Source: a virus (taxonomy: Duplodnaviria > Caudoviricetes). From it: DNA of 55,315 bases. The notes under the pieces are model-generated. The model ran no database searches. It was given only the letters and a program-made list of their open reading frames with translations, and was not told the DNA's origin. Made by a program: the position numbers and the translations under genes. Below, one piece after another: positions 2,554 through 36,113 of this stretch. The DNA is taken from the IMG/VR virus record IMGVR_UViG_3300020171_000034, positions 1 to 55,315 of that record. One strand, given 5' to 3'. How positions within the stretch are numbered: position 1 is the stretch's first letter; each line of letters begins with the position of its first letter.

Positions 2554-2590
2554 TGAACGAGATAATTCAGACATTATAGGAGATATTGAG

Positions 2591-2644: not shown

Positions 2645-2645
2645 C

Positions 2646-3380: not shown

Positions 3381-3389
3381 TAAAAGGAG

Positions 3390-16250: not shown

Positions 16251-16251
16251 T

Positions 16252-18411: not shown

Positions 18412-18746
18412 TTTGCCTCATTGTCTTTTCCTTTTTGAAGCAAAGCTATGAGGTCTTCATAGTTTACACCTTCTATCATTTCAAGAAGGGCATTATCTTC
18501 TTCTTGTGTCTTGTTTGTATTAAGGTTCTGCATTGCAGTGTAGAATCGCCTGTCAGCGTCAACATGGGTAAACCAGCCATGAAGAAAACAATAAAGTTCT
18601 GAAAGACATTTGGAGCAGTTTATTTGAATGATTCTATATGCAGTTTCTGAGGATAATTTTGGTAAATCTCCTTCACGCTCAACAGTTGTTTTTGTGTCAA
18701 GTTCAACAATCACCTGGGTGTTTCCACAAATTTTACATTCAATCAT
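18408..18746 (-). CDS. Hypothetical Zn-binding protein
   Basis: CKIC and CSKC pairs; overlaps helicase start. Confidence 0.55.
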   Translation of the reverse strand: MIECKICGNTQVIVELDTKTTVEREGDLPKLSSETAYRIIQINCSKCLSELYCFLHGWFTHVDADRRFYTAMQNLNTNKTQEEDNALLEMIEGVNYEDLIALLQKGKDNEAK

Positions 18747-18768
18747 TTAAACGCTTTCCTTTCTTTTT

Positions 18769-18930
18769 CTACCACCGAAGTAGATATTTGAGAAATGCTT
18801 CTTTTGGTATTTTCTTCACATCTTTAACCTGCTTATAACCTAAACTTTGAAACTTTCTTTTTTGTTTCTTGTCAATTACTGCATATTCAACACTATCAAC
18901 TACAAAGAAATCTGGGTCACGGTTTTTCAT
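18769..18930 (-). CDS. Small basic hypothetical protein (53 aa)
   Basis: MKNRDPDFFVVD...; ATGA overlap with polymerase stop. Confidence 0.5.
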   Translation of the reverse strand: MKNRDPDFFVVDSVEYAVIDKKQKRKFQSLGYKQVKDVKKIPKEAFLKYLLRW

Positions 18931-23889: not shown

Positions 23890-24069
23890 TTACCCTCTCC
23901 AACCTTCAAGGAACGCCCAGGGATTTGCACCCTCTTTAACCCCTGCGATGTAGTTTAGGATTAGTTTTCTGACCAACCATGACACCATTCGTGGCTCAGG
24001 AAGAAGCCTGCATAGTTCTTTGAATGTCTCTTCTTTAATGTCAACGTGGATTTGGTGGTGTTTTTCCAT
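23890..24069 (-). CDS. Putative ribbon-helix-helix DNA-binding protein (59 aa)
   Basis: HQIHVDIKEETFKEL...VSWLVRKLI pattern; GGAGG RBS; below ORF cutoff. Confidence 0.5.
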   Translation of the reverse strand: MEKHHQIHVDIKEETFKELCRLLPEPRMVSWLVRKLILNYIAGVKEGANPWAFLEGWRG

Positions 24070-24393
24070 CTATACCTCCTTTTGCATAAATTGTTCATAA
24101 ACTTTCTCCATGAGTATCAGTTTACACGACTCTCTTCCATACTGACATGTTGTTCCCTTCATTTCATTCACAAGTGCAATCTGCTCATTTCTTGGAAGCC
24201 CAACCACCCAACGAAACATTGTGTTCATGTCTGCTGCAGTTGCACTGGCACAGCCTCCCATTTTACCAAAATGGGTGTGGATGTAAATGAGTTGTTTTGT
24301 TTCAGGGTCTCTTGCGAAAACAACAAACATATTCCCACACGCTGTTCTTAGCCTCCATGTCTTAGATGGGTAAAAAATGTCAGGTTTTATCAT
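24070..24393 (-). CDS. Stand-alone TSCPD-like domain (class II RNR C-terminal type)
   Basis: RTACGNMFV, GKMGGC, KGTTC, ESC match the Cys pattern of NrdJ C-terminal domains. Confidence 0.65.
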   Translation of the reverse strand: MIKPDIFYPSKTWRLRTACGNMFVVFARDPETKQLIYIHTHFGKMGGCASATAADMNTMFRWVVGLPRNEQIALVNEMKGTTCQYGRESCKLILMEKVYEQFMQKEV

Positions 24394-24651
24394 TCACTTA
24401 CTCTGTTGCCTTAATGTTTCTGAAATCCACCACTTGTAACCATTGGGGTGGAATCTTAACCTTTTCTCGTTGTCTATATTCAGGTAGAATGGTTGTCCTT
24501 TTTTAATTTCATCTCTTAACTCAGAAATTGTGATAGTGTTTGGGTTAACTTTTCCCTCTGGTTCTTGATACATTCTCCAAAAGTAGCCAAGAGATGCGAC
24601 AAGAAAAATTAAGGTTGTGATAACAAAAAACCATTTAACAAAGTCTTTCAT
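24394..24651 (-). CDS. Membrane-anchored hypothetical protein
   Basis: N-terminal TM followed by LGYFWRM; similar motif in 31180-31386. Confidence 0.55.
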   Translation of the reverse strand: MKDFVKWFFVITTLIFLVASLGYFWRMYQEPEGKVNPNTITISELRDEIKKGQPFYLNIDNEKRLRFHPNGYKWWISETLRQQSK

Positions 24652-24765
24652 TTTACCTCCTCCTTTTTTGTGTTTGAGCAAGAGGAAGAGGCATAGGAGA
24701 ATTCATGAAAATCCTTCCTCTTTTTATTTGGAGAAACCTCTTGCTCATAATCTATTTAAGCCACA

Positions 24766-25161
24766 TTACGCCTTAAACACTTTGGATATTCTGGTTTGCT
24801 CACCATAAGCAGGGTCTTCTTTTGTGATTACATTAATACCTATGGTTTTTCCTGTAATGTCATCTGCCAACTCACATCCAAGAGCTTTGTAGAATGTTTT
24901 GACAAACCCCATTGATTTTTCTGAGAAATAAAGGTCATGCCAAATGTTACCTTGACCTGGAACACCTATTGTGATATGCATCCTTACCATTGCTGGGTCA
25001 GCGGTATTCATCTCTTCTCTGGTGATGGCTGTTGTGCCTTCGTTGTTCCATAATTCGCCTGTTTTAAGCTGATACTCTACCTTCTGAATTGTGCCTGTGT
25101 GTGGACCATCTGCAATTCCTACCCTAACTTTGCTTAAGTCAATGTCAAATATTCCTGGCAT
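24766..25161 (-). CDS. Putative ssDNA-binding protein (DUF669-like)
   Basis: DGPHTGTIQKVE..IWHDL..FYKALG..ITGKTIGI; next to Sak4-like ATPase. Confidence 0.55.
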   Translation of the reverse strand: MPGIFDIDLSKVRVGIADGPHTGTIQKVEYQLKTGELWNNEGTTAITREEMNTADPAMVRMHITIGVPGQGNIWHDLYFSEKSMGFVKTFYKALGCELADDITGKTIGINVITKEDPAYGEQTRISKVFKA

Positions 25162-25214
25162 TTCAATCCTCCAAATACGTAATATGCATCCCAAAGGGAT
25201 GTGGTTTGTTGTGT

Positions 25215-25367
25215 CTACTCTTTTGTGTTTTGCTCATCTAACCCCAGCTCATCATCCTCCCGCTCAAGTTCACCTATTTGTGTCTCATATTCTTCTATTG
25301 CCACACAGAAAGGACACTCTCTTCCTTCATAACAAATCTCTTTATGCCCTTCACTACATACTGTCAT
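25215..25367 (-). CDS. Small Cys/His protein (50 aa)
   Basis: MTVCSEGHKEICYEGRECPFC; acidic tail. Confidence 0.5.
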   Translation of the reverse strand: MTVCSEGHKEICYEGRECPFCVAIEEYETQIGELEREDDELGLDEQNTKE

Positions 25368-25378
25368 ACCTTTCCCTC

Positions 25379-26137
25379 CTATTTTAGATATTTACTCAAT
25401 TCCTGAAACGTGGCTGGTTTAATCAACTCAGGCACACTCAACCTTGAACCCGCTTGAAAGAACCCTGTCTTGCGTGTTCTCCAAACGTAATCACCTCCTT
25501 CAATTTTTTGTCTGTATAGTTCATCAATGTGTTTACCTAAACCTTTCCCCATGTTTTTACTTGGTGCGTATGGGAACTCTGACAAGACAATGCCAGTTTT
25601 TTCTTCCACTTCTGTGGCGACATGATTGACCAAGATGATGTATGGGATGGGAAGTGTTCTAAGGTTTGGTAAAAACTGTCCTGCCAGAATACCTGTCAAT
25701 GTCCCAAAATCATTTTGTCTGATAGAAGGAATTTTGTTTATCCATAAAATCATTTCCATCCAGATGCGGAACATAGATGTCATGGAGTCTATAACAAGGG
25801 TTTGGAAACCTTCTTTGTTTTCTCTCAAGGTTTTCATATACTCGTTGTATTCTTTGATGACATCAACGGATTCTGCTGTATGTTCTGGTGGGTCTCCTTT
25901 GCTCATCTTCCCACCCATATCTGTGACGAAACTCAAGTCATGAACTTTCTGTTTACATAGAGCTTTCACAAAAATCTTTTCAAAATCCTGAACAACAAGA
26001 CTCCCATCTTTGTTCTTTGCATGTTTTAGTGATTCTGTTCCGTTGACATCAAATTCAAGGTAGCACATTGGCTTTGGGAATGTGCCAGCAGAAACACTCT
26101 TGCCTGTGAAGCTTTCTCCAGCTAACATCAATATCAT
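25379..26137 (-). CDS. AAA_24 / Sak4-like ATPase
   Basis: GESFTGKS Walker A, LVIDSMT Walker B, ILVNH. Confidence 0.8.
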   Translation of the reverse strand: MILMLAGESFTGKSVSAGTFPKPMCYLEFDVNGTESLKHAKNKDGSLVVQDFEKIFVKALCKQKVHDLSFVTDMGGKMSKGDPPEHTAESVDVIKEYNEYMKTLRENKEGFQTLVIDSMTSMFRIWMEMILWINKIPSIRQNDFGTLTGILAGQFLPNLRTLPIPYIILVNHVATEVEEKTGIVLSEFPYAPSKNMGKGLGKHIDELYRQKIEGGDYVWRTRKTGFFQAGSRLSVPELIKPATFQELSKYLK

Positions 26138-26313
26138 TTCTTTCCTCCCTCCCATTTTTTATAACACTCATCTACAAACTTCTCCTTGTTGAAATTGCCA
26201 TAACTATCTGCAAGTCCTGATGCCACGATTGCAAAGATTTCTTCATTGAATCCTACCCTTCTGGCGAGGTGGATAGAAATGTCAACAAGGTTTTGATAAT
26301 CTTTTCTTGTCAT
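26134..26313 (-). CDS. Small hypothetical protein (59 aa)
   Basis: MTRKDY...NFNKEKF pattern; GGAG RBS. Confidence 0.55.
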   Translation of the reverse strand: MTRKDYQNLVDISIHLARRVGFNEEIFAIVASGLADSYGNFNKEKFVDECYKKWEGGKK

Positions 26314-26336
26314 TTTTTCTCCTATTCTGTTCAGTT

Positions 26337-26507
26337 CTATAATTCAGTTCTGGTAAAAGGAAGTGAGATGTGAATAGTCCTTCTCCCAAGTCTCACTTCT
26401 AAACATTTCTCTATATACCACATTGTTGCAGCATCTTTCAGCTTTATGAAAAATCTGCGTGGAATGATGTCACTTTTATAGTTTGAGAGAATGCTAAATA
26501 GTTTCAT
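26337..26507 (-). CDS. Hypothetical protein
   Basis: GGAGG RBS before MKLFS. Confidence 0.45.
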   Translation of the reverse strand: MKLFSILSNYKSDIIPRRFFIKLKDAATMWYIEKCLEVRLGRRTIHISLPFTRTEL

Positions 26508-26520
26508 TTGTCCTCCTTTT

Positions 26521-26760
26521 TCACTCCTCAGCATCTTCTACCTTCTCCAAAAAGACAATCAACGCTCCTCCTTCATCCTTCCCCATTGTCCATTTACCGT
26601 CAGCATGAGTAGGCAAAAAAACAGCCTTATCCTTAAAACTTCCAAACTGTCTTAAATCAAAATCAACAGGAAAACTTATGGTTTTAGCATAAGCAATCTT
26701 GACATTTTCGTTTTCTTCTTCCTTTTCTTCTTCCTTTTCTTCACATCTATACCTTTGCAT
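26521..26760 (-). CDS. Hypothetical protein
   Basis: GGAGG RBS; acidic N-terminus. Confidence 0.5.
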   Translation of the reverse strand: MQRYRCEEKEEEKEEENENVKIAYAKTISFPVDFDLRQFGSFKDKAVFLPTHADGKWTMGKDEGGALIVFLEKVEDAEE

Positions 26761-26920
26761 TATTCATCCTCCCACTTTTTTACTTCTGGTTCAAAAAAAC
26801 TTAGGAAACAATCATTACAGAAATCTCCATCTTCTGTTTGATGCAAAAATTGACCTTTTATCACATCCACCTCCCTCCCACATTCTTCGCATTTAAGTGT
26901 CGGAAGGGGTTTTTGGGGTC

Positions 26921-27796
26921 TCATGTATTTCTTTCCTCCTTTGCTCCTCCTATTATCTCCCTATTTTCGTATGGATGCCAGGGCTCTACAACATATTTTC
27001 CAGGTATTTGAATCTCCTCCACACCGTATGGGTCTGGATACATTGAACAAAGCTCAGTGTATTCACATGAAAACCCAGGGATGATAGGGACACAATTATC
27101 GGTGTTCTTTGGATGGAAGTCCTCTTCATCACAGACAACGATTTCATCATACCATGCAGAGATATTCCTTGCCCAATCCTGAGCACTCCATTTAGTCTTT
27201 AAGATTCTCATTGCAAGATGCCTCTGGGCGGGCTTTTCATGAAAGTGGATAATGTCAAGCACACCACCAAAGGGTTGTTTTCCATAAAGAGTTGAAAGAG
27301 CTGTGATGTAACCATCCATTTGCATGTTTGGTTCTGCACGATTGAGCCACGAGTTACCACCAATTGTGGTTGTTTTGTGTTCCATGATACCAACACCAAG
27401 TGTGGGAGAATCCACAATTCGGTCTATTTTCCCTATGAAAACAAAATCTCCATGTTTGGAGTGCACATCTATTGCAAAACCAACCTCAACATCTATTGTT
27501 TTATACTCTTCATCTTTCCACCTTGCAAAGTATGCATTGAGACCTTCAACCCCAGTGGTGAGATTTCGTTTAGGGTCTTCTTGGGTGACAGAAGACATGG
27601 CATTTTTGAATGCAGTGGTAGAAAGCGTTTGGTCTTTTGTTCTATTCCATGTTGCAAGTGCAATGTGAATTGCCTTCCCAAAATCACGAGCAATGCCTGT
27701 TGTTGTGAGATGGCGATGCATGCGCCAGTAGTGCATTCGTGGACATCGCATGAAGTGTGCAAGTGTGGAATAGTCTAACCATTTTTGGTTGTTCAT
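26921..27796 (-). CDS. PD-(D/E)XK exonuclease, Cas4/RecB-like
   Basis: CPRMHYW, FGKAIH, GKIDRI, EHKT, QMDGY, C-terminal C..CEYTELC (1+3 Cys). Confidence 0.85.
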   Translation of the reverse strand: MNNQKWLDYSTLAHFMRCPRMHYWRMHRHLTTTGIARDFGKAIHIALATWNRTKDQTLSTTAFKNAMSSVTQEDPKRNLTTGVEGLNAYFARWKDEEYKTIDVEVGFAIDVHSKHGDFVFIGKIDRIVDSPTLGVGIMEHKTTTIGGNSWLNRAEPNMQMDGYITALSTLYGKQPFGGVLDIIHFHEKPAQRHLAMRILKTKWSAQDWARNISAWYDEIVVCDEEDFHPKNTDNCVPIIPGFSCEYTELCSMYPDPYGVEEIQIPGKYVVEPWHPYENREIIGGAKEERNT

Positions 27797-27813
27797 GAAT
27801 TCTCCTTTTATTT

Positions 27814-27989
27814 ATACTGCGCAGCAGGATTCCAGTTTAGAAGCACAGAAGTCTTCTTTTATGACTACCTGCAAGTGATTGGGGTTGGCGTGGACTACTC
27901 CATAACTAAGCCCCACATTCTTTGTGTTATGACACATAGCGTCTGTTTTTCCCCTATACATCTGGGGGTGTTTCCACCATACGCAGTAT
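27814..27989 (-). ncRNA. Candidate structured RNA (~176 nt)
   Basis: ORF-free gap closed by 10-bp helix AUACUGCGUA/UGCGCAGUAU; GGUG-GAAA-CACC and several other hairpins. Confidence 0.45.
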
Positions 27990-28005
27990 CATGGATGCAC
28001 CAAAC

Positions 28006-28347
28006 TTAACTAAGCTGTGCAATAAGAGCCGCAATCTCTTCTTTGCTTCTTCCTTTCAGCAACTGAAGCAGTGCTTTCTGGCTTACCCCACTTGTCATTC
28101 TTTCTCTGCCAACCCCAGGAGTGAAGTTATTAACCATTTCCTGAGCCTGTTCCTCACTTTCTGCTTCATAACACAGCCTTCTTGCATCAATCGTGACCTG
28201 TGCAAGACATTTCTTCAAAACCACTTCTTCTCCCCACGTCTGTGTAGCCTCTTCCACGCTCTCTGGGAAGTTCATTGAGACAGTTCCAGATTGTGGTTCT
28301 GCTCCCTCTGGAACTTTAATACTATAGTTGATGTTTGTTGCCTTCAT
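28006..28347 (-). CDS. Hypothetical protein
   Basis: AAGGAGG RBS. Confidence 0.65.
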   Translation of the reverse strand: MKATNINYSIKVPEGAEPQSGTVSMNFPESVEEATQTWGEEVVLKKCLAQVTIDARRLCYEAESEEQAQEMVNNFTPGVGRERMTSGVSQKALLQLLKGRSKEEIAALIAQLS

Positions 28348-28401
28348 GATTGAAAGCCTCCTTTAAATGAAATTATAACGCCAAAGGCATTATTTGCTTC
28401 T

Positions 28402-28764
28402 TTACCTTACTGAAAGACTTAAGCCTCTCAGATATGAAATAAATCTTCTAATCAGCTCTTCCTTCTCAATCTTCAAAAGTTCTTCTTCACAATACTGACA
28501 AAACAAAACATTGGTCTGTTTTTCATAGAAATCTTGTGGGACACCTTTCATGAGGATGTCAAAGGGGTATACATCGTCATGGTTCTTTTTACATAGATTG
28601 CAGGTAATGTGGTTGTGCATTGTGACGGTATGGTAGGCACATTGGCATGTTACTTTTCTTGGCTTGGAAATCTTTTTCCCTAACACTTTCTTGAGAGCTT
28701 CAAGTATTTCATCTCTTGTGTGTGGGGCTAAAGATGTTAAAAGTGCATCAAGTTTGCTGTTCAT
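28402..28764 (-). CDS. Hypothetical Zn-finger protein
   Basis: CNLC and CQYC; first gene after promoter. Confidence 0.6.
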   Translation of the reverse strand: MNSKLDALLTSLAPHTRDEILEALKKVLGKKISKPRKVTCQCAYHTVTMHNHITCNLCKKNHDDVYPFDILMKGVPQDFYEKQTNVLFCQYCEEELLKIEKEELIRRFISYLRGLSLSVR

Positions 28765-28797
28765 GTTTCTCCTTAAAGTTTTGCATGATGATATATA

Positions 28798-28826
28798 ATT
28801 TTAACTCTTTGACTTTAAAAAGTCAA
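28798..28826 (-). promoter_or_regulatory. Sigma70-type promoter overlapped by a palindrome
   Basis: TTGACT-17-TAAAAT on - strand; TTGACTTTAAAAAGTCAA at 28809-28826. Confidence 0.75.
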
Positions 28827-28979
28827 GGGTTTGCAATAAGATTTAACAAAAATTTTAAGTGTGGTGCTTTCTTTTCTGGGTTTGTTCATTTCTTTACCTC
28901 CATACTTCATAAAAATAAATCTCTGTATAATACCATAACCCAAAATGGGTATATGGATAGGAGATGAAAATGTATTTTT

Positions 28980-29150
28980 TCATTTCTTTGCCTCCACCTT
29001 TATTTTTGATAGACGGTAGATTTTGCCTATGCCATTGCAAACAGAACAATTATAAACACCAGTTGATGAGCCAGAAGCATGTCTCTTTCCTTGATAGCAA
29101 GATTTACACTCTTCCATCTGCCTCACAAATTTAACTGCTACTTCTCCCAT
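28980..29150 (-). CDS. Small DnaJ-type Zn-finger protein (56 aa)
   Basis: CKSCYQG and CSVCNGIG; AGGAGG RBS. Confidence 0.5.
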   Translation of the reverse strand: MGEVAVKFVRQMEECKSCYQGKRHASGSSTGVYNCSVCNGIGKIYRLSKIKVEAKK

Positions 29151-29186
29151 AAATCCTCCTTGTTAAATTGTTTGTGATGCAAACAT

Positions 29187-29405
29187 TCAACAATTTTCCC
29201 ATAGCCACACTGCCAAACAAAATCTTTGTTTATCACTTAATTTTCCATACTTCTTATACCATTTTCTTATGCTTATAATTTTAGGCTTTCTTGCTCTTGC
29301 TGTGTCTTTAAATAACTCTTTATTTGAGAGGGACAGAAATTCCTCCTCAAATATTAGTTTTAATTTCTCCTCTCTATCACGAGCATCATCAGCAGCATCA
29401 CCCAT
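29187..29405 (-). CDS. Hypothetical protein
   Basis: MGDAADD start; LSDKQ motif; GGAG RBS. Confidence 0.55.
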   Translation of the reverse strand: MGDAADDARDREEKLKLIFEEEFLSLSNKELFKDTARARKPKIISIRKWYKKYGKLSDKQRFCLAVWLWENC

Positions 29406-29640
29406 TTTTTATTTCTCCTTTGCCTTTAAGCTTTATCCATTGGTCTGTTGCTTTGTTGAATAAATCGGGACGTTGTTTACATTTATCACAAAAATGAAGG
29501 ATTAGATATTTATTCTCCATCCTCCATGTTGCTAAATTTTCACACCATCCTTGCCTTTGACCAAAACAAGGATGTTCATTTGCAAATGGTAATACTGCTA
29601 TTGTTCCTGCCATTGTTGGTATTTTATCTCCGCTTTTCAT
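29398..29640 (-). CDS. Hypothetical Cys-rich protein
   Basis: AAGGAG RBS abutting attC1; C..WC..HFCDKC. Confidence 0.55.
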   Translation of the reverse strand: MKSGDKIPTMAGTIAVLPFANEHPCFGQRQGWCENLATWRMENKYLILHFCDKCKQRPDLFNKATDQWIKLKGKGEIKNG

Positions 29641-29648
29641 AATCTCCT

Positions 29649-29697
29649 TTCTAACCAATCATTCAACCCGACAAGCGGGTTAACTTTATCGTTATAT
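29649..29697 (+). mobile_element. attC-like integron recombination site 1
   Basis: TTCTAAC-CAATC-ATTCAACC-CG..CG-GGTTAAC-TTTATC-GTTATAT; unpaired C in L''. Confidence 0.75.
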
Positions 29698-29698
29698 T

Positions 29699-29845
29699 TC
29701 ACTCTGAATGAGAGTGCTCATTCAATATCCACCTTAATGCTCCTATGAATCCTGTTACGTGTTTCCATGTATCTGGATTACATTCCCTTTCCTGCTGCCT
29801 AAGCATCACCTCAAGTTCTTCTCTAACTTCTTCTTCAGTCTTCAT
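29699..29845 (-). CDS. Cassette-borne hypothetical protein (48 aa)
   Basis: MKTEEEVREE...GFIGALRWIL; fills the space between the two attC-like sites. Confidence 0.6.
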   Translation of the reverse strand: MKTEEEVREELEVMLRQQERECNPDTWKHVTGFIGALRWILNEHSHSE

Positions 29846-29863
29846 CTCTCTCTCCTTAATGAA

Positions 29864-29920
29864 ATATAACCAGCCAATCAACCCGCCGCTATTGGCGGTC
29901 GGGTTATCCGCACGTTACAC
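29864..29920 (+). mobile_element. attC-like integron recombination site 2
   Basis: ATATAAC-CAGCC-AATCAACC-CG..CG-GGTTATC-CGCAC-GTTACAC (57 bp); unpaired C in L''; inner CCGC/GCGG stem. Confidence 0.8.
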
Positions 29921-30070
29921 GTAATCAATAATTACCTCCTGTCTTCCGTATATTTCAATTCGCCAAGCATCAGTTGCCTGCCCACTTTCAGGGACATCAA
30001 TCAACTTTGTTGCAGAGACCTTTGGTTTCTGTCTTACAATTAATACAAGTTGGGGTTTGTCTTTTTCCAT
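29915..30070 (-). CDS. Hypothetical protein (51 aa) whose stop lies in the attC2 core
   Basis: MEKDKPQL...VIIDYV*; TAA is the complement of TTA in GTTACAC. Confidence 0.5.
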   Translation of the reverse strand: MEKDKPQLVLIVRQKPKVSATKLIDVPESGQATDAWRIEIYGRQEVIIDYV

Positions 30071-30137
30071 TCATTTCTCCTTGTTTTTATGGGGCTGGCT
30101 TTCAAGTTTATTGCTTTGCCTCCACCCACCAACGACA

Positions 30138-30521
30138 TCATAGAATACCATCCAACGCTTGAACTATCAAGGCTGCTGTGATGTCAGGGATGGCAGAAAT
30201 GTCTATATCACGTTTGTCTTTACAAAAATCTGCACCTTTGGTTACTTCTATATTCCCCTTGTTTTCTCTTATCCATATATAAACATATAACCCTTTCTTC
30301 ACCGCCAGCTTCAACAGCCTTTCCATGTTCTCCCATTTTGAGAAATCGGGGTTAATGTCTTTTATAAAAACAGGTGTTCCACAAGTCTGATGTATCTCTT
30401 CAAATGTAACTTGATGCCCGTCTAAATATGCTTCACACTTAGGACACCACCAGTCTGATTTTGTATGCCAACACCTGCCTTCACCTACTTTTACAAGAAA
30501 TTTATCTCTGAGTTCGCTCAT
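30138..30521 (-). CDS. Hypothetical protein with Zn ribbon
   Basis: WCPKC..H..CG; PDFSKWE. Confidence 0.6.
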   Translation of the reverse strand: MSELRDKFLVKVGEGRCWHTKSDWWCPKCEAYLDGHQVTFEEIHQTCGTPVFIKDINPDFSKWENMERLLKLAVKKGLYVYIWIRENKGNIEVTKGADFCKDKRDIDISAIPDITAALIVQALDGIL

Positions 30522-30661
30522 TTCTTTACCTCCTCCAGCAATGCCTCATATACACTGGTTTTATGGGCTGTCAAAATCTCGTTCCGACCCCATCCAGTTT
30601 TAGCGGATAGTTTCGCTGTGAATAGTTCCTCAATCTTGTTTAGTAATTCTTTTGTTTTCAT
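30518..30661 (-). CDS. Small hypothetical protein (47 aa)
   Basis: AGGAGG RBS; KTGWGRNE motif. Confidence 0.55.
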   Translation of the reverse strand: MKTKELLNKIEELFTAKLSAKTGWGRNEILTAHKTSVYEALLEEVKK

Positions 30662-30673
30662 TTTGCCTCCTTA

Positions 30674-30856
30674 TTAGTCATTGTTTTCCTCCTCTTCACT
30701 TTTTGCAATATATTTCTCTTTGTTTTCACAAATTTCTCTCACACACTTATCGCAAAGTGGCATTGTGCCAAACAAGGCTGTGCCATAAAGATACACTTCA
30801 TGGAGAGTGTGGCATTTGGAACATTTTAGCTTGGGTGTTGGGGGATTTTTCATCAT
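30674..30856 (-). CDS. Small Zn-finger protein
   Basis: CSKC and CDKC. Confidence 0.5.
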   Translation of the reverse strand: MMKNPPTPKLKCSKCHTLHEVYLYGTALFGTMPLCDKCVREICENKEKYIAKSEEEENND

Positions 30857-31122
30857 GTTATAATCTCTTCTTCTCTAACAAACTCATGACCCGCATCTCT
30901 TAAACGCTGAAAAAATGCACCAATATTCCCTTGCCAGTGTTCCATAAGAGGATACTTAGCAAAACCTGCTACGACTTCATTCTTACATTTGGGACATCTC
31001 CACACGTCAGCTTCCCAAAGTTTATAAATCGCAGTGTTTTGTTGGAACATCTCTACAACTATAATGCCATTTTTCTCTGGTTTGAGTGTGTGTTGGCATT
31101 GAACACATATAAGTCTTGGCAT
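30853..31122 (-). CDS. Zn-ribbon protein
   Basis: CVQC and WRCPKC; GGAGGAG RBS. Confidence 0.6.
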   Translation of the reverse strand: MPRLICVQCQHTLKPEKNGIIVVEMFQQNTAIYKLWEADVWRCPKCKNEVVAGFAKYPLMEHWQGNIGAFFQRLRDAGHEFVREEEIIT

Positions 31123-31179
31123 GTTTACTCTCCTCCTCCTTTTTGTTTAAAATGCCTTTTCACGACCTGAAAGAGCATT

Positions 31180-31386
31180 TTACTTTTCTTTTTCTCTTTC
31201 ATCAGTCATCAACTGTTCACAGTCAGTAAGTGATTGAACAATCTGTGCCTGTGCTTTTTTCATCTCTGCAAGAGTGTCTGACATTTGAGTCATTCTCCAC
31301 CAGTAGCCAAGAGCAATACCTATGAACAATGCCCCCACCAACAAAGCCCACATGGAAGTAAGCTTAATCGTTTCAGGTTTTCTCAT
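31180..31386 (-). CDS. Membrane-anchored hypothetical protein
   Basis: TM then LGYWWRM; coiled tail. Confidence 0.55.
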   Translation of the reverse strand: MRKPETIKLTSMWALLVGALFIGIALGYWWRMTQMSDTLAEMKKAQAQIVQSLTDCEQLMTDEREKEK

Positions 31387-31576
31387 CTCTTTCCTCCTTT
31401 ACTTTATACCCATCACCTCTCTTCTTATAATACTGAAACACCACCCCAGCTTTCACCCCCACACGCTTTGCAAGTTTATAAAAGAACTTCCCACATGCAT
31501 CAGCCTCAGACCAAGCGTGAGTATAAAGGTTGTGAATTTCTCCATACCAATTAAGAGAAGCGGAGTAGAGTTTCAT
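31373..31576 (-). CDS. Hypothetical protein
   Basis: GGAGG RBS before MKLYS. Confidence 0.5.
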   Translation of the reverse strand: MKLYSASLNWYGEIHNLYTHAWSEADACGKFFYKLAKRVGVKAGVVFQYYKKRGDGYKVKEERDEKT

Positions 31577-31758
31577 TGCTTTGCCTCCTTCCTCTTCCAC
31601 GTTTTCTTATCACACGTTGCTATAATCACCGTATGAGGTTTTTCAACATCACCAAAGATACTCTTCACCGCACATCTTGGAAGTTCCTCGTCAAGTCCTT
31701 CTCTACACCCACGTATGCAGAAGATTTCAGACTCATGCGTATACCATTTCATAAGCAT
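31573..31758 (-). CDS. Hypothetical protein
   Basis: GGAGG RBS; operon packing. Confidence 0.45.
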   Translation of the reverse strand: MLMKWYTHESEIFCIRGCREGLDEELPRCAVKSIFGDVEKPHTVIIATCDKKTWKRKEAKQ

Positions 31759-31766
31759 GTCTCCTC

Positions 31767-31994
31767 CTATAACTCTGAAAACCACTCAACAGATTCTGGT
31801 TCAATGTATTGAAAAATGGAGGTGGGTTGCTCACCCTCACCTTCTACATAGTAATCAGCTCTGTTATAAACACATTCTTGGAATACCACAAGACTTGCTT
31901 CAACAAAAAAATGGGTAATTATAATACCTTTTTTCACAATTACACCGACACTATTCGTGTTTAACACAGTCACCTTTTCTTTCTTACTGGACAT
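31767..31994 (-). CDS. Hypothetical protein
   Basis: GGAGG RBS. Confidence 0.5.
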   Translation of the reverse strand: MSSKKEKVTVLNTNSVGVIVKKGIIITHFFVEASLVVFQECVYNRADYYVEGEGEQPTSIFQYIEPESVEWFSEL

Positions 31995-31998
31995 TGCT

Positions 31999-32415
31999 TT
32001 ACCTCCCTTTATTTATTCTCTCAGTCATTTCTTTCAACATCTTCCTTCGTTCTGGGTCTCTTTCCCTGTTTGCACCTCTTTGTCTTATCTCAAGGTTCTC
32101 TCTTTGCATGTCATATCTGTCACCATTCTTGAAAAACACAAGGATGGTGTGGTTAAATTGCTCCTTTCCTATCCACATTCTCTGTGCAACTAAGCGGTGA
32201 AGTTGATTCAAATACCTTTTTCCTTTTGAATCCTTCCTTGTTGAACGAGCAACCACACTCCCTCTAAACATACTCCAAGTTTCAGCTGCAAGGTCATAAT
32301 CCTCATCTGAAACCTTCACGAGTCTTCCGTTTGGATTCCAATCTCCAAGCAGGGAGGTGAATTTCCTTTCGGGGTCTATTGGCGTTTCTCCTCCGAGTGC
32401 GATGATGTATTTCAT
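31999..32415 (-). CDS. Degenerate HNH_3-like protein
   Basis: VSDEDYD, LHRLVA, VFFKNGDRYDMQRENL; catalytic His and Asn positions replaced. Confidence 0.55.
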   Translation of the reverse strand: MKYIIALGGETPIDPERKFTSLLGDWNPNGRLVKVSDEDYDLAAETWSMFRGSVVARSTRKDSKGKRYLNQLHRLVAQRMWIGKEQFNHTILVFFKNGDRYDMQRENLEIRQRGANRERDPERRKMLKEMTERINKGR

Positions 32416-32615
32416 TCTATCCCTCCACCTTCCAACACTTCCCCATCTTCTGAGATAACTCCATCATCAATCAAAGCATGTGCACATCTCCCAAACCAAC
32501 CCTGAAGATTCCAGCATAACCCCGTCTTAATCAACCACGCCCACGCCTCCAGCCTTGTTTTCTCATCAACTTTCTCAACACCTTCTGCAATCATTATAGC
32601 TTCATAGGTATCCAT
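32412..32615 (-). CDS. Hypothetical phage protein
   Basis: AWAWLIKTGLCWNLQGWFGRCAHALI. Confidence 0.65.
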   Translation of the reverse strand: MDTYEAIMIAEGVEKVDEKTRLEAWAWLIKTGLCWNLQGWFGRCAHALIDDGVISEDGEVLEGGGIE

Positions 32616-32675
32616 TTGACTTCACCTCCTCCACCCTTTTTTGAACCAACATTTCTCTCCTGTTTTTTTAGAGGA

Positions 32676-32751
32676 GGCGGCGGTCTACAGCTCCGCCCCC
32701 ATTGTTCATGGTTGTGTTGCCCCCTCTGGTCTGTAGAGCCACAAAGGGCAA
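32676..32751 (-). ncRNA. Candidate kissing-loop two-hairpin RNA
   Basis: Two hairpins with 9-nt loops containing complementary UCUACAG and CUGUAGA; G-U pairs favour - strand. Confidence 0.5.
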
Positions 32752-32756
32752 GGAGA

Positions 32757-32894
32757 TTATTCCAGATATGTCTCAGCAATTTCAAGGGCATCTGCGATAG
32801 ATTTGCCCTCAAGAATTGCCAATAACATAATCCTCAGCGCTCGCTCATTCAGGGCAGTTGTGACGATTGATTTTATTTCTTCTTGTGTTTTCAT
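32757..32894 (-). CDS. Small hypothetical protein (45 aa)
   Basis: MKTQEEIKSIV...; GGAGG upstream. Confidence 0.45.
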   Translation of the reverse strand: MKTQEEIKSIVTTALNERALRIMLLAILEGKSIADALEIAETYLE

Positions 32895-32900
32895 CCTTTC

Positions 32901-33080
32901 TCACCTCCTCCTTTTTTTGTCTGCTGCCATGACTGCTCTCTTGTTGTCATTTTCTGCCTCCTTTACCACCGCCTCATACGCCGCCGCATACGCCTCCCAC
33001 GCCTCCGCCTGCGCCTTCTTCGCCTCCTGATATACTATCCATGCCATCTCCACCTTGTATGTCTTTTTCGTTTTGCTCAT
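32901..33080 (-). CDS. Ala-rich hypothetical protein (59 aa)
   Basis: AAGGAGG RBS; AEAWEAYAAAYEA. Confidence 0.55.
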   Translation of the reverse strand: MSKTKKTYKVEMAWIVYQEAKKAQAEAWEAYAAAYEAVVKEAENDNKRAVMAADKKRRR

Positions 33081-33120
33081 TTTACCTCCTTAAATGCTTT
33101 TTCACGTCGTGAAAGACCAT

Positions 33121-33426
33121 TTATTCTTTCACAACCCACGCTTTCATTATTCTCGGCAATTTCCCTTCATACTGCCCACCCCACTCCCTCACTGTTCCAT
33201 AGTCTCTATCCCACACATACCCACCCACAAAACTCTCAGGCTTTTCAAATCCTTCCTTGCAGACCACATCAATCCCTCTTCTCCAATGATGCTTTGACAC
33301 TCCAAGAAATATCCATTCACCTGAAAACTCTTCACCATCTCCAAACCTCTCAGCTTGCATCATCCTTCCCTTCTCATCAACCACAAACTCTTCTTCTCTA
33401 CACACAAAATGCAACATCTTACTCAT
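33121..33426 (-). CDS. Hypothetical protein
   Basis: AGGAG RBS; DRDYGTVREWG. Confidence 0.6.
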   Translation of the reverse strand: MSKMLHFVCREEEFVVDEKGRMMQAERFGDGEEFSGEWIFLGVSKHHWRRGIDVVCKEGFEKPESFVGGYVWDRDYGTVREWGGQYEGKLPRIMKAWVVKE

Positions 33427-33611
33427 GATTTCTCCTTCTCCACCAACTCTCTCACCTTCTTTATCGTATCCATCAGCTCATCAGTCTCCTTAATCATTTT
33501 CTTTGCAATCTCTGTCATCTCTTCCACTGTGTATTCCTTTGTCATATCCATTTTCTCCTTCATTGTGTCCTCCATCGTGTCCTCCCTTGTGTCCTCCGTC
33601 TTGACGTTCAA
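33423..33611 (-). CDS. Hypothetical protein, start uncertain
   Basis: Helical ORF with 12-bp repeats (EDT x3) at its 5' end. Confidence 0.4.
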   Translation of the reverse strand: MNVKTEDTREDTMEDTMKEKMDMTKEYTVEEMTEIAKKMIKETDELMDTIKKVRELVEKEKS

Positions 33612-33671
33612 GGTTGCGTTGTGTGCCCTTCAAACCCTGAGTGTTGCAAAAAAGCCTCACTATGCCCCTAT

Positions 33672-33983
33672 CCAGACAGCCATGTCTCTCGCATGACTCC
33701 ACGAGACTCTTGAGACTCCTGGGACAGCCAAAACCGCCCTTTCCTTTTGTCTCCGTCTTGTCTATCCTGTCTTTTGTCTGTCTATCTCTGTCTATCTCTG
33801 TCTATCTCTCATACATAGTATGTATATATATATACATATATATATATATATGTATATAGAGTATATGAGAGATAGACAGAGATAGACATACTCCATACAA
33901 CAAGGCAAAGGGGAAAGCCCCTTCTGGCTGTCTGGAGAGTCCCAAGAGTCCCGAAGAGTCCCAAAAGACAACTGGCTGTCTGG
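33672..33983. other. Mirror-symmetric origin-like element (inverted boxes around TA-rich core)
   Basis: Five box pairs at exact mirror positions about 33827.5; 25-bp perfect inverted repeat; (TA)n core. Confidence 0.6.
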
Positions 33984-34084
33984 TTTAAGTTTTAAGGTAA
34001 GGGAGAACATCCCTTGTCCCTTTTGAAGGGCAGAAAAGCCCCTTTTTGTAAGGTTTTGACGCCCTCCTGCCCTGCCCTGCCTCC

Positions 34085-34291
34085 TTAAAACTTAAAACCC
34101 TCCTCCTCCTCATCTCTTGGAATGTTGAAGATGCGGCGCAGGAGAATTAGAAGTATGCCTGCCAGAACCATACCTGCAATACCACCGAAAACATCTCCTG
34201 TCCAAATCCAACATATTGCTCCTGTGAGTAACTCAAACGGGTGTGCTTTCATTCTAACCTTCTCCTCAATTTGAATTGTTGCCCACAACAC
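34085..34291 (-). CDS. Small membrane protein
   Basis: Two hydrophobic segments; start uncertain. Confidence 0.45.
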   Translation of the reverse strand: MLWATIQIEEKVRMKAHPFELLTGAICWIWTGDVFGGIAGMVLAGILLILLRRIFNIPRDEEEEGFKF

Positions 34292-34297
34292 AAGCAG

Positions 34298-34326
34298 AAA
34301 AAGAGGGCAGGGATTTCTCCCTGCCC
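34298..34326 (-). terminator. Intrinsic terminator
   Basis: GGGCAGGGA-GAAA-TCCCTGCCC then TCTTTTT on - strand, just after stop of 34334-34723. Confidence 0.7.
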
Positions 34327-34333
34327 ACCTTCT

Positions 34334-34723
34334 TTACTTTGACTGCAGTTCCTTCAACATCTCTGTAAACTGTGCCTGACTCAATCCCTTTCCACGCACC
34401 AACTTCAACAGCTCCTTCTCCTCAACCGAGATTGTCTTTGCCTTGTCAATGCCTCTTTCAAAAGACATGAGGTCAGGAAAATCCCCGTCCAGGATTTCCT
34501 CTGCTTTGTCATACGCCTCTTGTGCGGTCTTCTCATCCTTTGCGACCTTGTTTACCTCGTTGATGTGGTAACCGTACCAGAAGTTCTTGACAATCCGCCC
34601 TATGTCAAATTTAGTCATGATATGAGTCAAAGCCGCATCAGCATCCTTAAACTTGACCTCATAGACTGCCTTTTGACTTCCCTTAACACCCTCAAAGCAA
34701 TAAGACCCTTTAAGTTCAATCAT
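34334..34723 (-). CDS. Hypothetical early protein
   Basis: AAGGAG RBS; first long ORF after leftward promoter. Confidence 0.65.
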   Translation of the reverse strand: MIELKGSYCFEGVKGSQKAVYEVKFKDADAALTHIMTKFDIGRIVKNFWYGYHINEVNKVAKDEKTAQEAYDKAEEILDGDFPDLMSFERGIDKAKTISVEEKELLKLVRGKGLSQAQFTEMLKELQSK

Positions 34724-34905
34724 CGTTTTCTCCTTTTCGCTCTCGGAGTCAGACCCAAAGCCTCACTCTCAAGATGCACTATTTTAAGTGTATAGGTGGC
34801 AAAGCCACCGCCTCCTAACATACTGGCTGACCTTATAAGTCTTGACCTTGCTCTGTTCCCTTAACCACCTCCTCTTGTTAACACTTTCTTTACTTTCCTA
34901 TCCCT

Positions 34906-34934
34906 ATTATAACAAATCCCGACCAAAAAGTCAA
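34906..34934 (-). promoter_or_regulatory. Strong leftward sigma70-type promoter
   Basis: TTGACT-17-TATAAT with TGn extended -10. Confidence 0.8.
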
Positions 34935-35057
34935 GCCCTTTATGCCTTTAACGGTGTAAATAGTGTTCATTTGACAGAGGGGTGGAGGGGGGGATAGATA
35001 AAAATTGTCTTTTATTTATAGTCCCTCCTCACAAAATTTTACATTCTACTCTGTCTG

Positions 35058-35087
35058 TTTTGCAACATTTTGCAACATTTTGCAACA
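35058..35087 (+). repeat. 10-bp tandem repeat x3
   Basis: TTTTGCAACA x3 between divergent promoters. Confidence 0.9.
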
Positions 35088-35130
35088 GTTGTTGTTTGTT
35101 TTATGATGTTTGTTGTATGTCCCACTTCCC

Positions 35131-35159
35131 TTGACTTCCCTTCACTGAGGTGGTAGAAT
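35131..35159 (+). promoter_or_regulatory. Rightward sigma70-type promoter
   Basis: TTGACT-17-TAGAAT with TGn extended -10. Confidence 0.75.
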
Positions 35160-35195
35160 GAAGGTAAGAGGTAGAATAATCATAAGGGAGGACTT

Positions 35196-35516
35196 ATGCG
35201 AGAAGGTGATGAGAAGTATGTGGTGTTTGGTGATTCAGGAGCGAATACAACGTGTAGGCTGGTGGAAAGTGCAGATGTCATATTAGGCACACGGGTGACG
35301 AGGGTAGGGGCTGGGACAACAGGTACTCTGACCCCAGATTGGTATTATGGGCGTTGTTTCAGACCATGGAATGACTATTATGTCTATCCATCTTCAGTTG
35401 ACATCACACGAAAGGCGTTTAATGTTGCCAAGACGCTTCAAGAAAAGAAGCTCATCAACATCAGAACAATCAAGCAATTCACAGACCTTGTTGATGAGAT
35501 TATGAAGGTGGTTTAA
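35196..35516 (+). CDS. Hypothetical protein
   Basis: GGAGG RBS; first gene of + arm. Confidence 0.6.
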   Translation: MREGDEKYVVFGDSGANTTCRLVESADVILGTRVTRVGAGTTGTLTPDWYYGRCFRPWNDYYVYPSSVDITRKAFNVAKTLQEKKLINIRTIKQFTDLVDEIMKVV

Positions 35517-36113
35517 ATGGGTAGAACTCCTGAAATTTGGAGTCAGAATGTTGAAAATCTTGCTCTGACATACATTCGCCCATATCATAGAGAGATAGCC
35601 AGGAGACTGGTTCTGGGTGAGACAGCAGCACGCATCTGTCGGTCTATTGGGATGGGGGAGGGAAGGATGTCTATTATTGTGAACTCCCCACTGTTTAAGC
35701 TTGAGATTAAAAGGCTTGAGGACTTGAGAGATGGTGGTGTTGCAGATGTCACACAGACGTTGAAAGAGCTGAGTCCTCTTGCACTTGAGGTTGTGGAAAG
35801 GACAATGCATGGGTCTAAGTCAGAAACCCTACGTTTCTCTGCAGCTCAAGATGTCCTTGACAGGGCTGGGTATGGAAAGACAACGAAGGTTCTTGCTCAG
35901 TTTGCTGGCAATATAACCCACTCTACCCTTTCTGAAGCAGAACTTCGCCAGCTTGTTCTGGACAGAGTTCAAAGGATTAAGGATGAGGCTGAGCAGAAAG
36001 CCAGGGAGCTGAGAGAGGTTGATGGAACAGTGATTACCCTTGAAGAAGTTGAATCAGATGACGTTTCAGGACATGAAAACACTGGAGGAAAGATTAATGT
36101 TGCCTTTATCTAA
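35517..36113 (+). CDS. terS: Putative terminase small subunit
   Basis: N-terminal HTH-like region, RFSAAQDVLDRAGY; precedes TerL. Confidence 0.65.
   Translation: MGRTPEIWSQNVENLALTYIRPYHREIARRLVLGETAARICRSIGMGEGRMSIIVNSPLFKLEIKRLEDLRDGGVADVTQTLKELSPLALEVVERTMHGSKSETLRFSAAQDVLDRAGYGKTTKVLAQFAGNITHSTLSEAELRQLVLDRVQRIKDEAEQKARELREVDGTVITLEEVESDDVSGHENTGGKINVAFI

What the first reader, a model, noticed from the sequence alone, without database searches (positions are those of the whole stretch)
29649..29920. Integron attC sites and a complete gene cassette inside a phage early operon, with no integrase
Seen: two sites with R''-L''-L'-R' layout and an unpaired C in L''; site 1 has the same box spacing as the aadA attC as I recall it (TCTAAC AATTC ATTCAAGC..GCTTAAT TCAAGC GTTAGA). 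The end of site 1 (GTTATATTTC) is the exact complement of the start of site 2 (GAAATATAAC), as expected for a 223-bp excisable cassette (29692-29914). The cassette holds one phage-like gene, and the next gene stops inside the site 2 core. Genes run antisense to canonical cassette polarity, so they read from the phage leftward promoters. Site 1 is only 49 bp. No tyrosine recombinase is in the window. Inference: the phage uses host IntI to gain, lose or shuffle early genes; this is my best candidate for an undescribed system.
Basis: partly seen in the sequence, partly recalled or inferred. Interest (0 to 1): 0.85.

Follow-up and report, generated by a model that had tools for sequence, protein, structure and literature searches.

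The report
Integron attC sites in a phage
Two genuine integron recombination sites bracket one tiny gene in the early operon of an uncultivated groundwater phage that has no integrase of its own; the gene lies backwards relative to normal integron cassettes, as it also does in the other phage contigs examined here.

Summary
A covariance model (R1) built here from 13 attC sites of class 1 integron plasmids, with no phage sequence in it, ranks the two sites first and second in the 55-kb window. Site 1 (29649-29697) scores 28.2 bits and site 2 (29864-29920) 23.0 bits, both on the + strand; the next hit scores 16.2. Box spacing matches the aadA1 attC of plasmid R100. The 10-bp complementarity across the 223-bp cassette (29692-29914) is the usual footprint of crossover at G|TT, seen also in bacterial and other phage arrays. 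No tyrosine recombinase is encoded.

Integrase-less attC clusters (CALINs) in virulent phages, recombined by IntI1, were published in 2023 (PMC9892861).

What looks new is polarity. The cassette ORF is antisense to its attC. In viral contigs, resolvable cassettes were 0 sense to 17 antisense and 12 to 39. In bacterial arrays they were 89 to 11 and 52 to 7.

No read or relative lacks exactly 29692-29914, so current mobility is inferred, not shown.

The parts
29649..29697 (+). attC site 1 (49 nt): R'' 29649-29655, L'' 29661-29670 with unpaired C29664, 5-nt loop, L' 29676-29683, R' 29691-29697; crossover G29691|T29692
   Evidence: R1 scores it 28.2 bits, E 1.1e-4, over the full model. Spacing is the same as the aadA1 attC of R100.
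29864..29920 (+). attC site 2 (57 nt): R'' 29864-29870, L'' 29876-29885 with unpaired C29879, variable hairpin 29886-29899, L' 29900-29907, R' 29914-29920; crossover G29914|T29915
   Evidence: R1 scores it 23.0 bits, E 2.1e-3. The bottom strand folds as R stem, internal loop and L stem with a bulged base. It is 89% identical over 54 nt to an attC of the unrelated phage contig G001.
29692..29914 (+). 223-bp cassette bounded by the two G|TT crossover points
   Evidence: Its first bases (within GTTATATTTC, 29691-29700) are complementary at 10 of 10 positions to the R'' flank of its own attC (29861-29870). The rejoined circle attC folds with an 11-bp R stem at -20.2 kcal/mol, against -13.8 in the array.
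29699..29845 (-). Cassette ORF of 48 aa, antisense to the attC top strand. Its ribosome-binding site and start lie next to R'' of site 2.
   Evidence: ORF list. No Pfam family. Homologues at 77% and 46% identity lie in attC-free operons of small genes on two metagenome contigs.
29915..30070 (-). Upstream early gene of 51 aa. Its stop codon TAA (29915-29917) is the TTA of the site 2 core.
   Evidence: no Pfam family
29398..29640 (-). Downstream early gene of 80 aa from the ATG at 29640. Its ribosome-binding site AAGGAG (29644-29649) abuts R'' of site 1.
   Evidence: no Pfam family

Best explanation
The two sites are genuine integron attC recombination sites. Together they form a two-site, integrase-less cluster (CALIN) inside the leftward early operon of an uncultivated groundwater phage, and they enclose one complete 223-bp cassette.

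Shown:
- The array carries the footprint of integron-integrase crossover at G|TT.
- The ORF is inverted relative to canonical cassettes. It starts next to its own attC and is read from the phage's leftward transcription.

Inferred:
- In a host that expresses an integron integrase, the bottom strand of the sites (the window's - strand, which is also the coding strand) folds into the hairpin.
- IntI, acting in trans, can then excise the cassette as a circle or insert others, so small accessory genes are exchanged as modules.
- The inverted polarity puts the recombining strand on the non-template strand. If replication runs with the genes, that is also the lagging-strand template, which would favour folding.
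- The same polarity would leave phage-type cassettes silent in a bacterial integron, and bacterial cassettes silent in the phage.
For: attC identity:
- R1, built only from plasmid attC sites, ranks the sites first and second in the window.
- R1 recovers 280 sites in 65 bacterial loci.
- R1 scores the IntI1-validated cluster of phage TJE1 at 16.3-27.7 bits (PMC9892861).
- Box spacing equals that of the aadA1 attC.

Crossover footprint (positions matched out of 7):
- In the window, R' of site 1 against R'' of site 2 matches 7 of 7. The within-site pairs match 2 and 3 of 7.
- The same excess appears in bacterial arrays: L161 6.10 against 3.09, L156 6.00 against 4.70.
- It also appears in phage arrays: G001 5.29 against 3.00 and 3.38, L044 6.62 against 4.22.
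- The rejoined circle site folds far better than either site in the array.

Shared site pool:
- G000 and G001 share only 3 weak protein matches, yet share a site-2-type attC.
- In the probable source run, depth doubles over site 2, and 4 contigs match up to 29917 and then diverge.

No integrase in the record.

Polarity:
- Viral contigs gave 0 sense, 17 antisense and 9 unresolved; bacterial arrays gave 89, 11 and 24.
- A second, automated set gave viral 12 sense, 39 antisense, 26 unresolved and 5 duplicates, against bacterial 52, 7 and 21 (Fisher 2.6e-12).
- Antisense ORFs include two full-length MT-A70 methylases and a DUF2528 protein.
- Portal or terminase genes lie within a few kb of 4 of the 10 arrays tested.
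Against: - No contig of 4 runs joins 29691 to 29915 or shows the circle junction. These were assembled contigs, which drop rare variants.
- The one close relative seen (run X2) lacks 28858-31148, and those ends are not at the attC cores.
- The outer halves have no partners. GTTAGAAAGG and the complement of GTTACACGTAAT have no second copy near by, so the flanking 'cassettes' have no visible far ends.
- In the array, site 1 folds only its 6-bp central stem.
- R1 is home-made from 13 sites and its E-values are rough. The official IntegronFinder and HattCI models were not available.
- The host, and whether it has intI, are unknown.
- The crossover footprint does not by itself tell crossover in R' from crossover in R''. 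Only the bulge asymmetry assigns it.
- Polarity was called from the longest ORF, not from a gene caller. About a third of intervals were unresolved, and intervals within one array are not independent.
- TJE1, a published phage cluster, has sense polarity.
Confidence: 0.78

Rival explanations
1. Fossil sites. The attC sites are real in origin (a cassette array fragment once assembled by an integrase) but are now inert passengers in this phage. The early region varies by ordinary illegitimate or homologous recombination instead.
For: The related contig in run X2 lacks 28858-31148, with ends away from the cores, and no joint lies at the crossover points. The outer halves of both sites have no partner. 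Site 1 folds weakly in the array.
Against: The 10 of 10 complementarity of the cassette's own R boxes is intact, and both bulges and spacings are intact. Near-identical arms are shared with an unrelated phage. Four contigs in the source run diverge right at the core.
Confidence: 0.15
2. Intergenic RNA hairpins (terminators, processing or stabilising stems of the early transcript) that resemble attC only by convergence.
For: Both sites fill intergenic gaps exactly, and each lies just upstream of a ribosome-binding site on the transcribed strand. attC sites are thought to contain weak terminators (stated in PMC9892861, section 3.4).
Against: There is no T-run after either stem, and neither site is among the 11 terminator-like sites of 24000-36000. 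An RNA role does not explain the conserved AAC/GTT boxes at fixed spacing, the bulged base, the model scores or the cross-cassette complementarity. No Rfam family matches there.
Confidence: 0.04
3. Sites for a different single-strand hairpin recombinase (HUH/Y1 transposase or a Xer-type system) rather than an integron integrase.
For: No integrase is present, so the enzyme is unknown. The inverted ORF polarity is atypical for integrons.
Against: The sites score with a model made only of IntI1 substrates. They belong to L-box types that fill bacterial cassette arrays. Phage attC sites of comparable score recombine with IntI1 (PMC9892861). No recombinase of any tyrosine type is in the record. HUH enzymes were not searched for.
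Confidence: 0.03

Closest known systems
CALIN (cluster of attC sites lacking an integron-integrase) in phage genomes, Qi et al. 2023, Front Microbiol (PMC9892861)
   Same: Two or more attC sites on one strand within 4 kb, with no intI, inside a phage that looks virulent. Small ORFs and methylases travel as cassettes. The sites score like TJE1's IntI1-validated ones under model R1.
   Different: The published TJE1 cluster has ORFs in the sense of the attC, and the authors call it typical. Here the ORF is antisense, as in most of the viral contigs examined. Only two sites are present, and site 1 is 49 nt. I could not see that paper's figures or supplementary tables, which may hold strand data.
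aadA1 attC (59-base element) of class 1 integrons, as in In2/Tn21 of plasmid R100
   Same: Same order and spacing of R'', 5-nt spacer, L'' with one unpaired C, L', 6-nt spacer and R'. Same strand asymmetry.
   Different: The central hairpin is reduced to a 6-bp stem and a 5-nt loop. The R''/R' boxes are AT-rich (TTCTAAC, GTTATAT) and do not match each other within the array. The gene lies on the other strand.
Sedentary chromosomal integron arrays of environmental Proteobacteria and other phyla (Lysobacteraceae, Rhodocyclaceae, Competibacteraceae, Methylococcales and others)
   Same: The same L-box type (TCAACCCG..CGGGTTA) at the same spacing occurs in at least 120 bacterial loci. Short sites with 5-nt loops occur in Methylococcales and Campylobacterales assemblies. 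The cross-cassette complementarity is the same.
   Different: Bacterial cassettes are mostly sense: 89 to 11 and 52 to 7. Bacterial arrays are long. Presence of an integrase near those arrays was not checked here.
Inverted cassettes within bacterial integrons (from my own recollection: often toxin-antitoxin cassettes with their own promoters)
   Same: The ORF is antisense to the attC within a normal array. A minority class of this kind was seen here in 11 of 100 and 7 of 59 resolved bacterial intervals.
   Different: In the phage contigs the inverted form is the rule rather than the exception. The genes are read through from phage operon promoters rather than from promoters of their own. That last point is inferred for this window from the tight operon.

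Membership tests
attC site (integron cassette recombination site) | R'' (RYYYAAC) and R' (GTTRRRY) boxes with conserved AAC and GTT at the two ends | tested here: met
   Site 1 has TTCTAAC and GTTATAT; site 2 has ATATAAC and GTTACAC. AAC and GTT are exact, and each 7-mer fits the consensus at 6 of 7 positions. The consensus itself is recalled, but it agrees with the 13 curated sites.
attC site (integron cassette recombination site) | L''/L' inner stem with an extrahelical base on the R''/L'' arm and an unpaired spacer between the R and L boxes, which gives strand asymmetry | tested here: met
   C29664 and C29879 are unpaired on the top strand, which means an unpaired G on the bottom strand. 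Spacers are 5 nt on the 5' side and 6 nt on the 3' side, as in aadA1. R1 matches only the + strand. A second extrahelical base was not examined.
attC site (integron cassette recombination site) | Significant score with an attC covariance model | tested here: met
   The home-built model R1 gives 28.2 and 23.0 bits, the top two hits in the window. The official IntegronFinder and HattCI models were not available, so this is a stand-in test.
attC site (integron cassette recombination site) | Recombination by an integron integrase at G|TT, with bottom-strand preference | not testable with these tools
   Only the evolutionary footprint is seen. This needs an attC x attI or attC x attC assay.
CALIN (IntegronFinder definition: two or more attC sites within 4 kb on one strand, no integrase near by) | [quoted passage not shown] | tested here: met
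   The sites are 166 nt apart and both on the + strand. TIGR02249 and PF00589 gave 0 matches in the whole 55-kb record. The definition is as given in PMC4889954 (passages read).
Integron gene cassette | A unit bounded by two G|TT crossover points, whose first bases pair with the R'' of its own attC | tested here: met
   29692-29914. Complementarity is 10 of 10, or 7 of 7 variable positions, against 2-3 of 7 for the within-site pairs. The rejoined site folds at -20.2 kcal/mol.
Integron gene cassette | ORF on the attC top strand, followed by its attC (canonical polarity) | tested here: not met
   The ORF 29699-29845 lies on the - strand while the attC lies on the + strand. It is therefore a cassette of inverted polarity, not a canonical one.
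Complete integron | intI gene, attI site and Pc promoter beside the array | tested here: not met
   No integrase is present. attI and Pc were not searched for.

The most novel reading that the evidence does not exclude
Phages keep a cassette pool of their own, of mirror polarity. Small accessory genes (methylases, probable counter-defence and host-takeover genes) are carried as attC-bounded modules whose ORFs run antisense to the attC, and host integron integrases exchange them among phages.

The inversion would have two effects. It would put the recombining bottom strand on the coding strand, and probably the lagging-template strand, a 'hot' configuration opposite to stable bacterial arrays. 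It would also keep the two pools apart in expression, so that bacterial (defence) cassettes landing in a phage, or phage cassettes landing in a bacterial integron, stay silent.

On this reading, the window's two-site array is a small member of a large class. That class includes at least 64 IMG/VR loci with sites confirmed by the model.
Probability: 0.35. Interest if true: 0.85.

Novelty: new variant of a known kind. Interest (0 to 1): 0.62.

Why it matters
Integron sites in phages are known. This locus adds three things.

- **A clean natural example.** It is a complete minimal cassette (223 bp, one 48-aa gene) in a phage with no integrase, and its crossover footprint is intact.
- **Evidence for a shared site pool.** Unrelated phages from different samples carry near-identical attC arms.
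- **A polarity rule.** In the viral contigs examined, cassette genes run against their attC, the reverse of bacterial arrays.

If the rule holds under a proper census, phage accessory genes would be circulating as a separate cassette pool that borrows the host's integrase. That bears on how counter-defence genes spread. It also bears on the open question of where cassettes come from, and on why attC strand orientation matters. It is directly testable with existing attC assays and with IntegronFinder run on viral databases.

Tried and rejected
**Searches that found nothing**
- Relatives of the phage. megablast of 28000-32000 against the phage records found nothing. The search for related loci in viral contigs found no relative with the 127-aa protein, the exonuclease, the cassette protein or the DNA polymerase. 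The syntenic locus could therefore not be compared in a sister genome.
- Partners for the outer halves. GTTAGAAAGG (1 mismatch allowed) and ATTACGTGTAAC (2 mismatches allowed) have no second copy near the sites. GTTRRRY motifs to the left, such as 29162, occur at chance frequency. The far ends of the flanking 'cassettes' were therefore not found.
- A wider left-arm motif search with 3 mismatches gave 60 matches against 57 expected, so it was uninformative.

**Reads**
- In contigs of 4 runs laid on 27000-33000 there is no joint 29691 to 29915 and no circle junction.
- Joints 28790>30512 (side 22) and 30533>29718 ('goes back 816', depth 5.1) are weak, do not lie at the cores, and were left unexplained.
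- The cover of X3 and X4 is too small to interpret.

**Other analyses**
- A cruder polarity test, using the longest ORF in the 250 nt upstream of each pattern match, gave mostly ambiguous calls. The viral set gave 5 '?', 1 S and 1 edge; the bacterial set gave 53 S, 7 A, 59 '?', 9 none and 4 edge. I replaced it with the interval test.
- Terminator reading: rejected.
- Rfam: nothing at the sites, and one chance-level hit elsewhere.
- Pfam on 10 small early proteins gave no family at its cut-off.
- GC skew follows gene strand and cannot separate replication from transcription, so the lagging-strand argument stays an inference.
- The host could not be named. The nearest bacterial attC arms come from several phyla.
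- Literature: searches and term searches within PMC9892861, PMC4889954 and 10.64898/2026.03.17.712381 found no statement on inverted polarity of phage cassettes. The library is incomplete, and figures and supplements were not visible.
- Rows left out of the polarity counts: intervals shorter than 120 or longer than 2000 nt, intervals between sites on opposite strands, and duplicate intervals. Only the 150 best of 188 viral hits entered alignment A2. Of the 120 loci, 78 were searched; G001's loci were left out there.

Full report
**What the window is.** The window is a whole IMG/VR virus record of 55,315 bases. It is linear, and CheckV estimates it as 100% complete. It encodes a primase, a DNA polymerase, a ParB-methylase fusion, a Sak4-like annealing protein, an exonuclease and a portal protein. 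From about 16 kb to 33 kb the genes run on the - strand. Between 28 and 33 kb they are a tight run of small ORFs. Public runs that hold the stretch are groundwater metagenomes.

**The observation.**
- Site 1 (29649-29697) reads TTCTAAC, CAATC, ATTCAACCCG, ACAAG, CGGGTTAA, then a spacer and GTTATAT.
- Site 2 (29864-29920) reads ATATAAC, CAGCC, AATCAACCCG, a 14-nt inner hairpin, CGGGTTAT, CCGCAC and GTTACAC.
- In both sites one C of the 5' arm (29664, 29879) has no partner.
- The core stem AACCCG..CGGGTT occurs only at these two places in the window, against none in 100 shuffles.
- I read the aadA1 attC from plasmid R100.
- GTTATATTTC (29691-29700) is the exact complement of GAAATATAAC (29861-29870).
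- The 51-aa gene to the right stops on the TTA of the site 2 core.

**Independent test.** IntegronFinder's model was not available, so I built a stand-in.
- I fetched class 1 integron arrays from plasmids.
- I took the 13 attC sites that lie just downstream of annotated cassette genes: aadA1, aadA2, aadA16, aacA34, cmlA6, aac(6')-Ib4, a cupin gene, dfrA27, dfrA14, blaSIM-1, dfrA22, dfrA1 and arr-2.
- From these I built covariance model R1, with 15 pairs for the R and L boxes and one bulge.
- An unfiltered scan of both strands of the window puts site 1 first (28.2 bits, E 1.1e-4) and site 2 second (23.0 bits, E 2.1e-3). Both are full-length and on the + strand. The third hit has 16.2 bits.

Controls on the model:
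- R1 finds 280 sites in 65 bacterial loci.
- It finds sites in only 4 of 99 unrelated viral loci, 845 kb in all, at E<=0.01.
- It scores the three attC sites of phage TJE1 at 16.3, 18.4 and 27.7 bits. Two attC sites of that cluster were shown to recombine with IntI1 (PMC9892861, section 3.4).
- The calibration is short, so E-values are rough.

**The cassette footprint.** In an integron array each attC is a chimera. The bases after G|TT belong to the next cassette and pair with that cassette's own R''. I measured this on the 7 variable positions of the extended R boxes.
- In the window, the cross-cassette pair matches 7 of 7. The two within-site pairs match 2 and 3 of 7.
- The same excess holds in bacterial arrays: L161 6.10 against 3.09, L156 6.00 against 4.70, L192 4.78 against 3.30, L142 5.30 against 4.55.
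- It also holds in viral arrays: G001 5.29 against 3.00 and 3.38, L044 6.62 against 4.22, L047 5.00 against 3.00.
- When the cassette ends are joined in silico, the reconstituted attC folds with an 11-bp R stem, an internal loop and a bulged L stem at -20.2 kcal/mol. Site 2 as it stands in the array folds at -13.8.

One caveat applies. This footprint alone would also fit crossover in R''. Only the bulge asymmetry, which R1 reads, places it at G|TT of the + strand.

**No integrase.** Six-frame searches with TIGR02249 and PF00589 found nothing in the record, while PF00589 rang over its cut-off in all 14 control genomes.

**Relatives of the sites, not of the phage.** No close relative of the phage itself was found. 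Relatives of the sites, however, are plentiful.
- A pattern search for the core stem in IMG/VR brought in contigs with full attC flanks.
- One of them, G001 (66 kb), has terminase, portal-like, primase and methylase genes and no integrase.
- G001 holds 16 sites of at least 22 bits in two opposed arrays.
- G000 and G001 share only three weak protein matches. Yet a G001 site is 89% identical to site 2 over 54 nt, with the inner hairpin flipped.
- The same L-box type, with R boxes at the same spacing, occurs in at least 120 loci of bacterial genomes from many phyla.
- These bacterial sites include some as short as site 1 with 5-nt loops, one of them with the same ACAAG loop. The shortness of site 1 is therefore not an objection.

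**The gene.** The 48-aa product has no Pfam family. It has two relatives, at 77% and 46% identity, on short metagenome contigs. There the gene sits in runs of small genes, and no attC site is found by R1.

**Mobility now.** Contigs of four runs were laid on 27000-33000.
- None joins 29691 to 29915.
- A related contig in run X2 lacks 28858-31148, with ends away from the cores. That is ordinary mosaicism of an early region.
- In the probable source run the depth doubles over site 2, several contigs carry variants of its inner hairpin, and four contigs match up to 29917 and then diverge.
- This fits one attC type joined to different neighbours at the core, but those contigs may belong to other elements.

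Present-day recombination is therefore inferred, not shown.

**Polarity.** The attC top strand is the + strand and the genes are on the - strand. Each cassette therefore reads, in the direction of transcription, as attC, ribosome-binding site, ORF, boundary. I asked whether this is peculiar to the window. For each interval between neighbouring sites I took the longest ORF. It had to cover at least half the interval, with no rival on the other strand longer than 80% of it.

| Set | Sense | Antisense | Unresolved or other |
|---|---|---|---|
| 15 bacterial arrays | 89 | 11 | 24 |
| Window, G001 (two arrays), L044, L047 | 0 | 17 | 9 |
| Second viral set (other L-box pattern; 188 R1 hits in 78 loci) | 12 | 39 | 26 unresolved, 5 duplicates |
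| 50 further bacterial loci | 52 | 7 | 21 |

- For the two automated sets (lower two rows), Fisher's test gives 2.6e-12 by interval. By locus majority the counts are 24 antisense to 2 sense (viral) against 2 to 26 (bacterial), p 1.1e-10.
- Mean G+C of the intervals is 0.53 and 0.52.
- The antisense ORFs are real genes in three tested cases: two full-length MT-A70 methylases in G001 and a DUF2528 protein in L044.
- Of 10 large ORFs near arrays, 4 are portal or terminase genes, 2 are primases, one matches a tail protein weakly and one is a serine integrase.
- The rule is not absolute. TJE1 is sense. The one weak site of phage P12002L (15.2 bits) is antisense to the flanking methylase genes.
- Limits: ORFs were not called with a gene caller, a third of intervals were unresolved, and intervals within one array are not independent.

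**How it probably works.**

Shown:
- genuine attC architecture;
- the crossover footprint;
- absence of an integrase;
- inverted polarity;
- a shared attC type in unrelated phages.

Inferred:
- A host integron integrase acts in trans on the folded bottom strand, which here is the coding strand, to excise or insert cassettes.
- Genes are expressed by read-through from the leftward early promoters. A promoter-like site with 11 of 12 matches lies at 34934-34906 on the - strand.
- The inversion would expose the recombining strand as the non-template strand. If replication starts near the divergent region at about 34 kb, it would also expose it as the lagging-strand template. The GC-skew turning point is there but is confounded with gene strand.
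- The inversion would also leave bacterial cassettes silent in the phage, and phage cassettes silent in a bacterial integron.

**Comparison and novelty.** Integrase-less attC clusters in phages, including virulent ones, with IntI1-dependent recombination, are in print (PMC9892861; I read the abstract, sections 2.1 and 3.4, and searched passages). I found no statement on inverted polarity of phage cassettes in four library searches and three papers searched by term. Figures and supplements were not visible, and the library is incomplete. I therefore file the locus as a new variant of a known kind.

Noticed in passing
window 33776-33891: A large inverted repeat: 24-nt arms that are 96% complementary, and 50-nt arms at 86%, around a (TA)n centre. 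It lies at the boundary between the leftward and rightward gene blocks, where cumulative GC skew turns. It may be an origin or a regulatory region.
   Followed up: partly
G001 (IMG/VR contig of L027): 16194-19421 (+) and 25421-27546 (-): A 66-kb phage contig carries two opposed arrays of 8 attC sites each and has no integrase. The cassette ORFs are antisense to their attC sites, and two of them are MT-A70 methylases.
   Followed up: yes
R1 confirmed sites in 64 of the 78 loci searched, and 41 of those had two or more. attC sites appear to be common in uncultivated phage contigs.
   Followed up: partly
window 28858-31148: A closely related contig in another groundwater run (X2, depth 31.7) lacks this 2.29-kb block of small early genes, which includes both attC sites. 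It is collinear on either side of the block.
   Followed up: no
L044:114-1592 and 2540-6654: This viral contig has a large serine recombinase next to 9 attC sites that score up to 67 bits, in the same score range as sites in Lysobacteraceae chromosomal arrays (up to 68.2 bits). Its ORFs are antisense. It is probably a temperate phage that carries its host's attC type.
   Followed up: partly
L162, L195, L196, L209, L210 (Methylococcales assemblies): Mini-attC sites of 41-48 nt with 5-nt loops occur. In L162 they are 1.7-2.6 kb apart, wider than usual cassette spacing, and score 24-27 bits.
   Followed up: no
window 29718-30533: One low-depth contig (5.1) of the probable source run joins 30533 back to 29718 with 3 extra letters. 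This could be a duplication or circle junction that is not at the attC cores, or an assembly artefact.
   Followed up: no
window 22103-23419 (-): A 438-aa protein has an N-terminal ParB-like nuclease domain and a C-terminal DNA methyltransferase domain.
   Followed up: no
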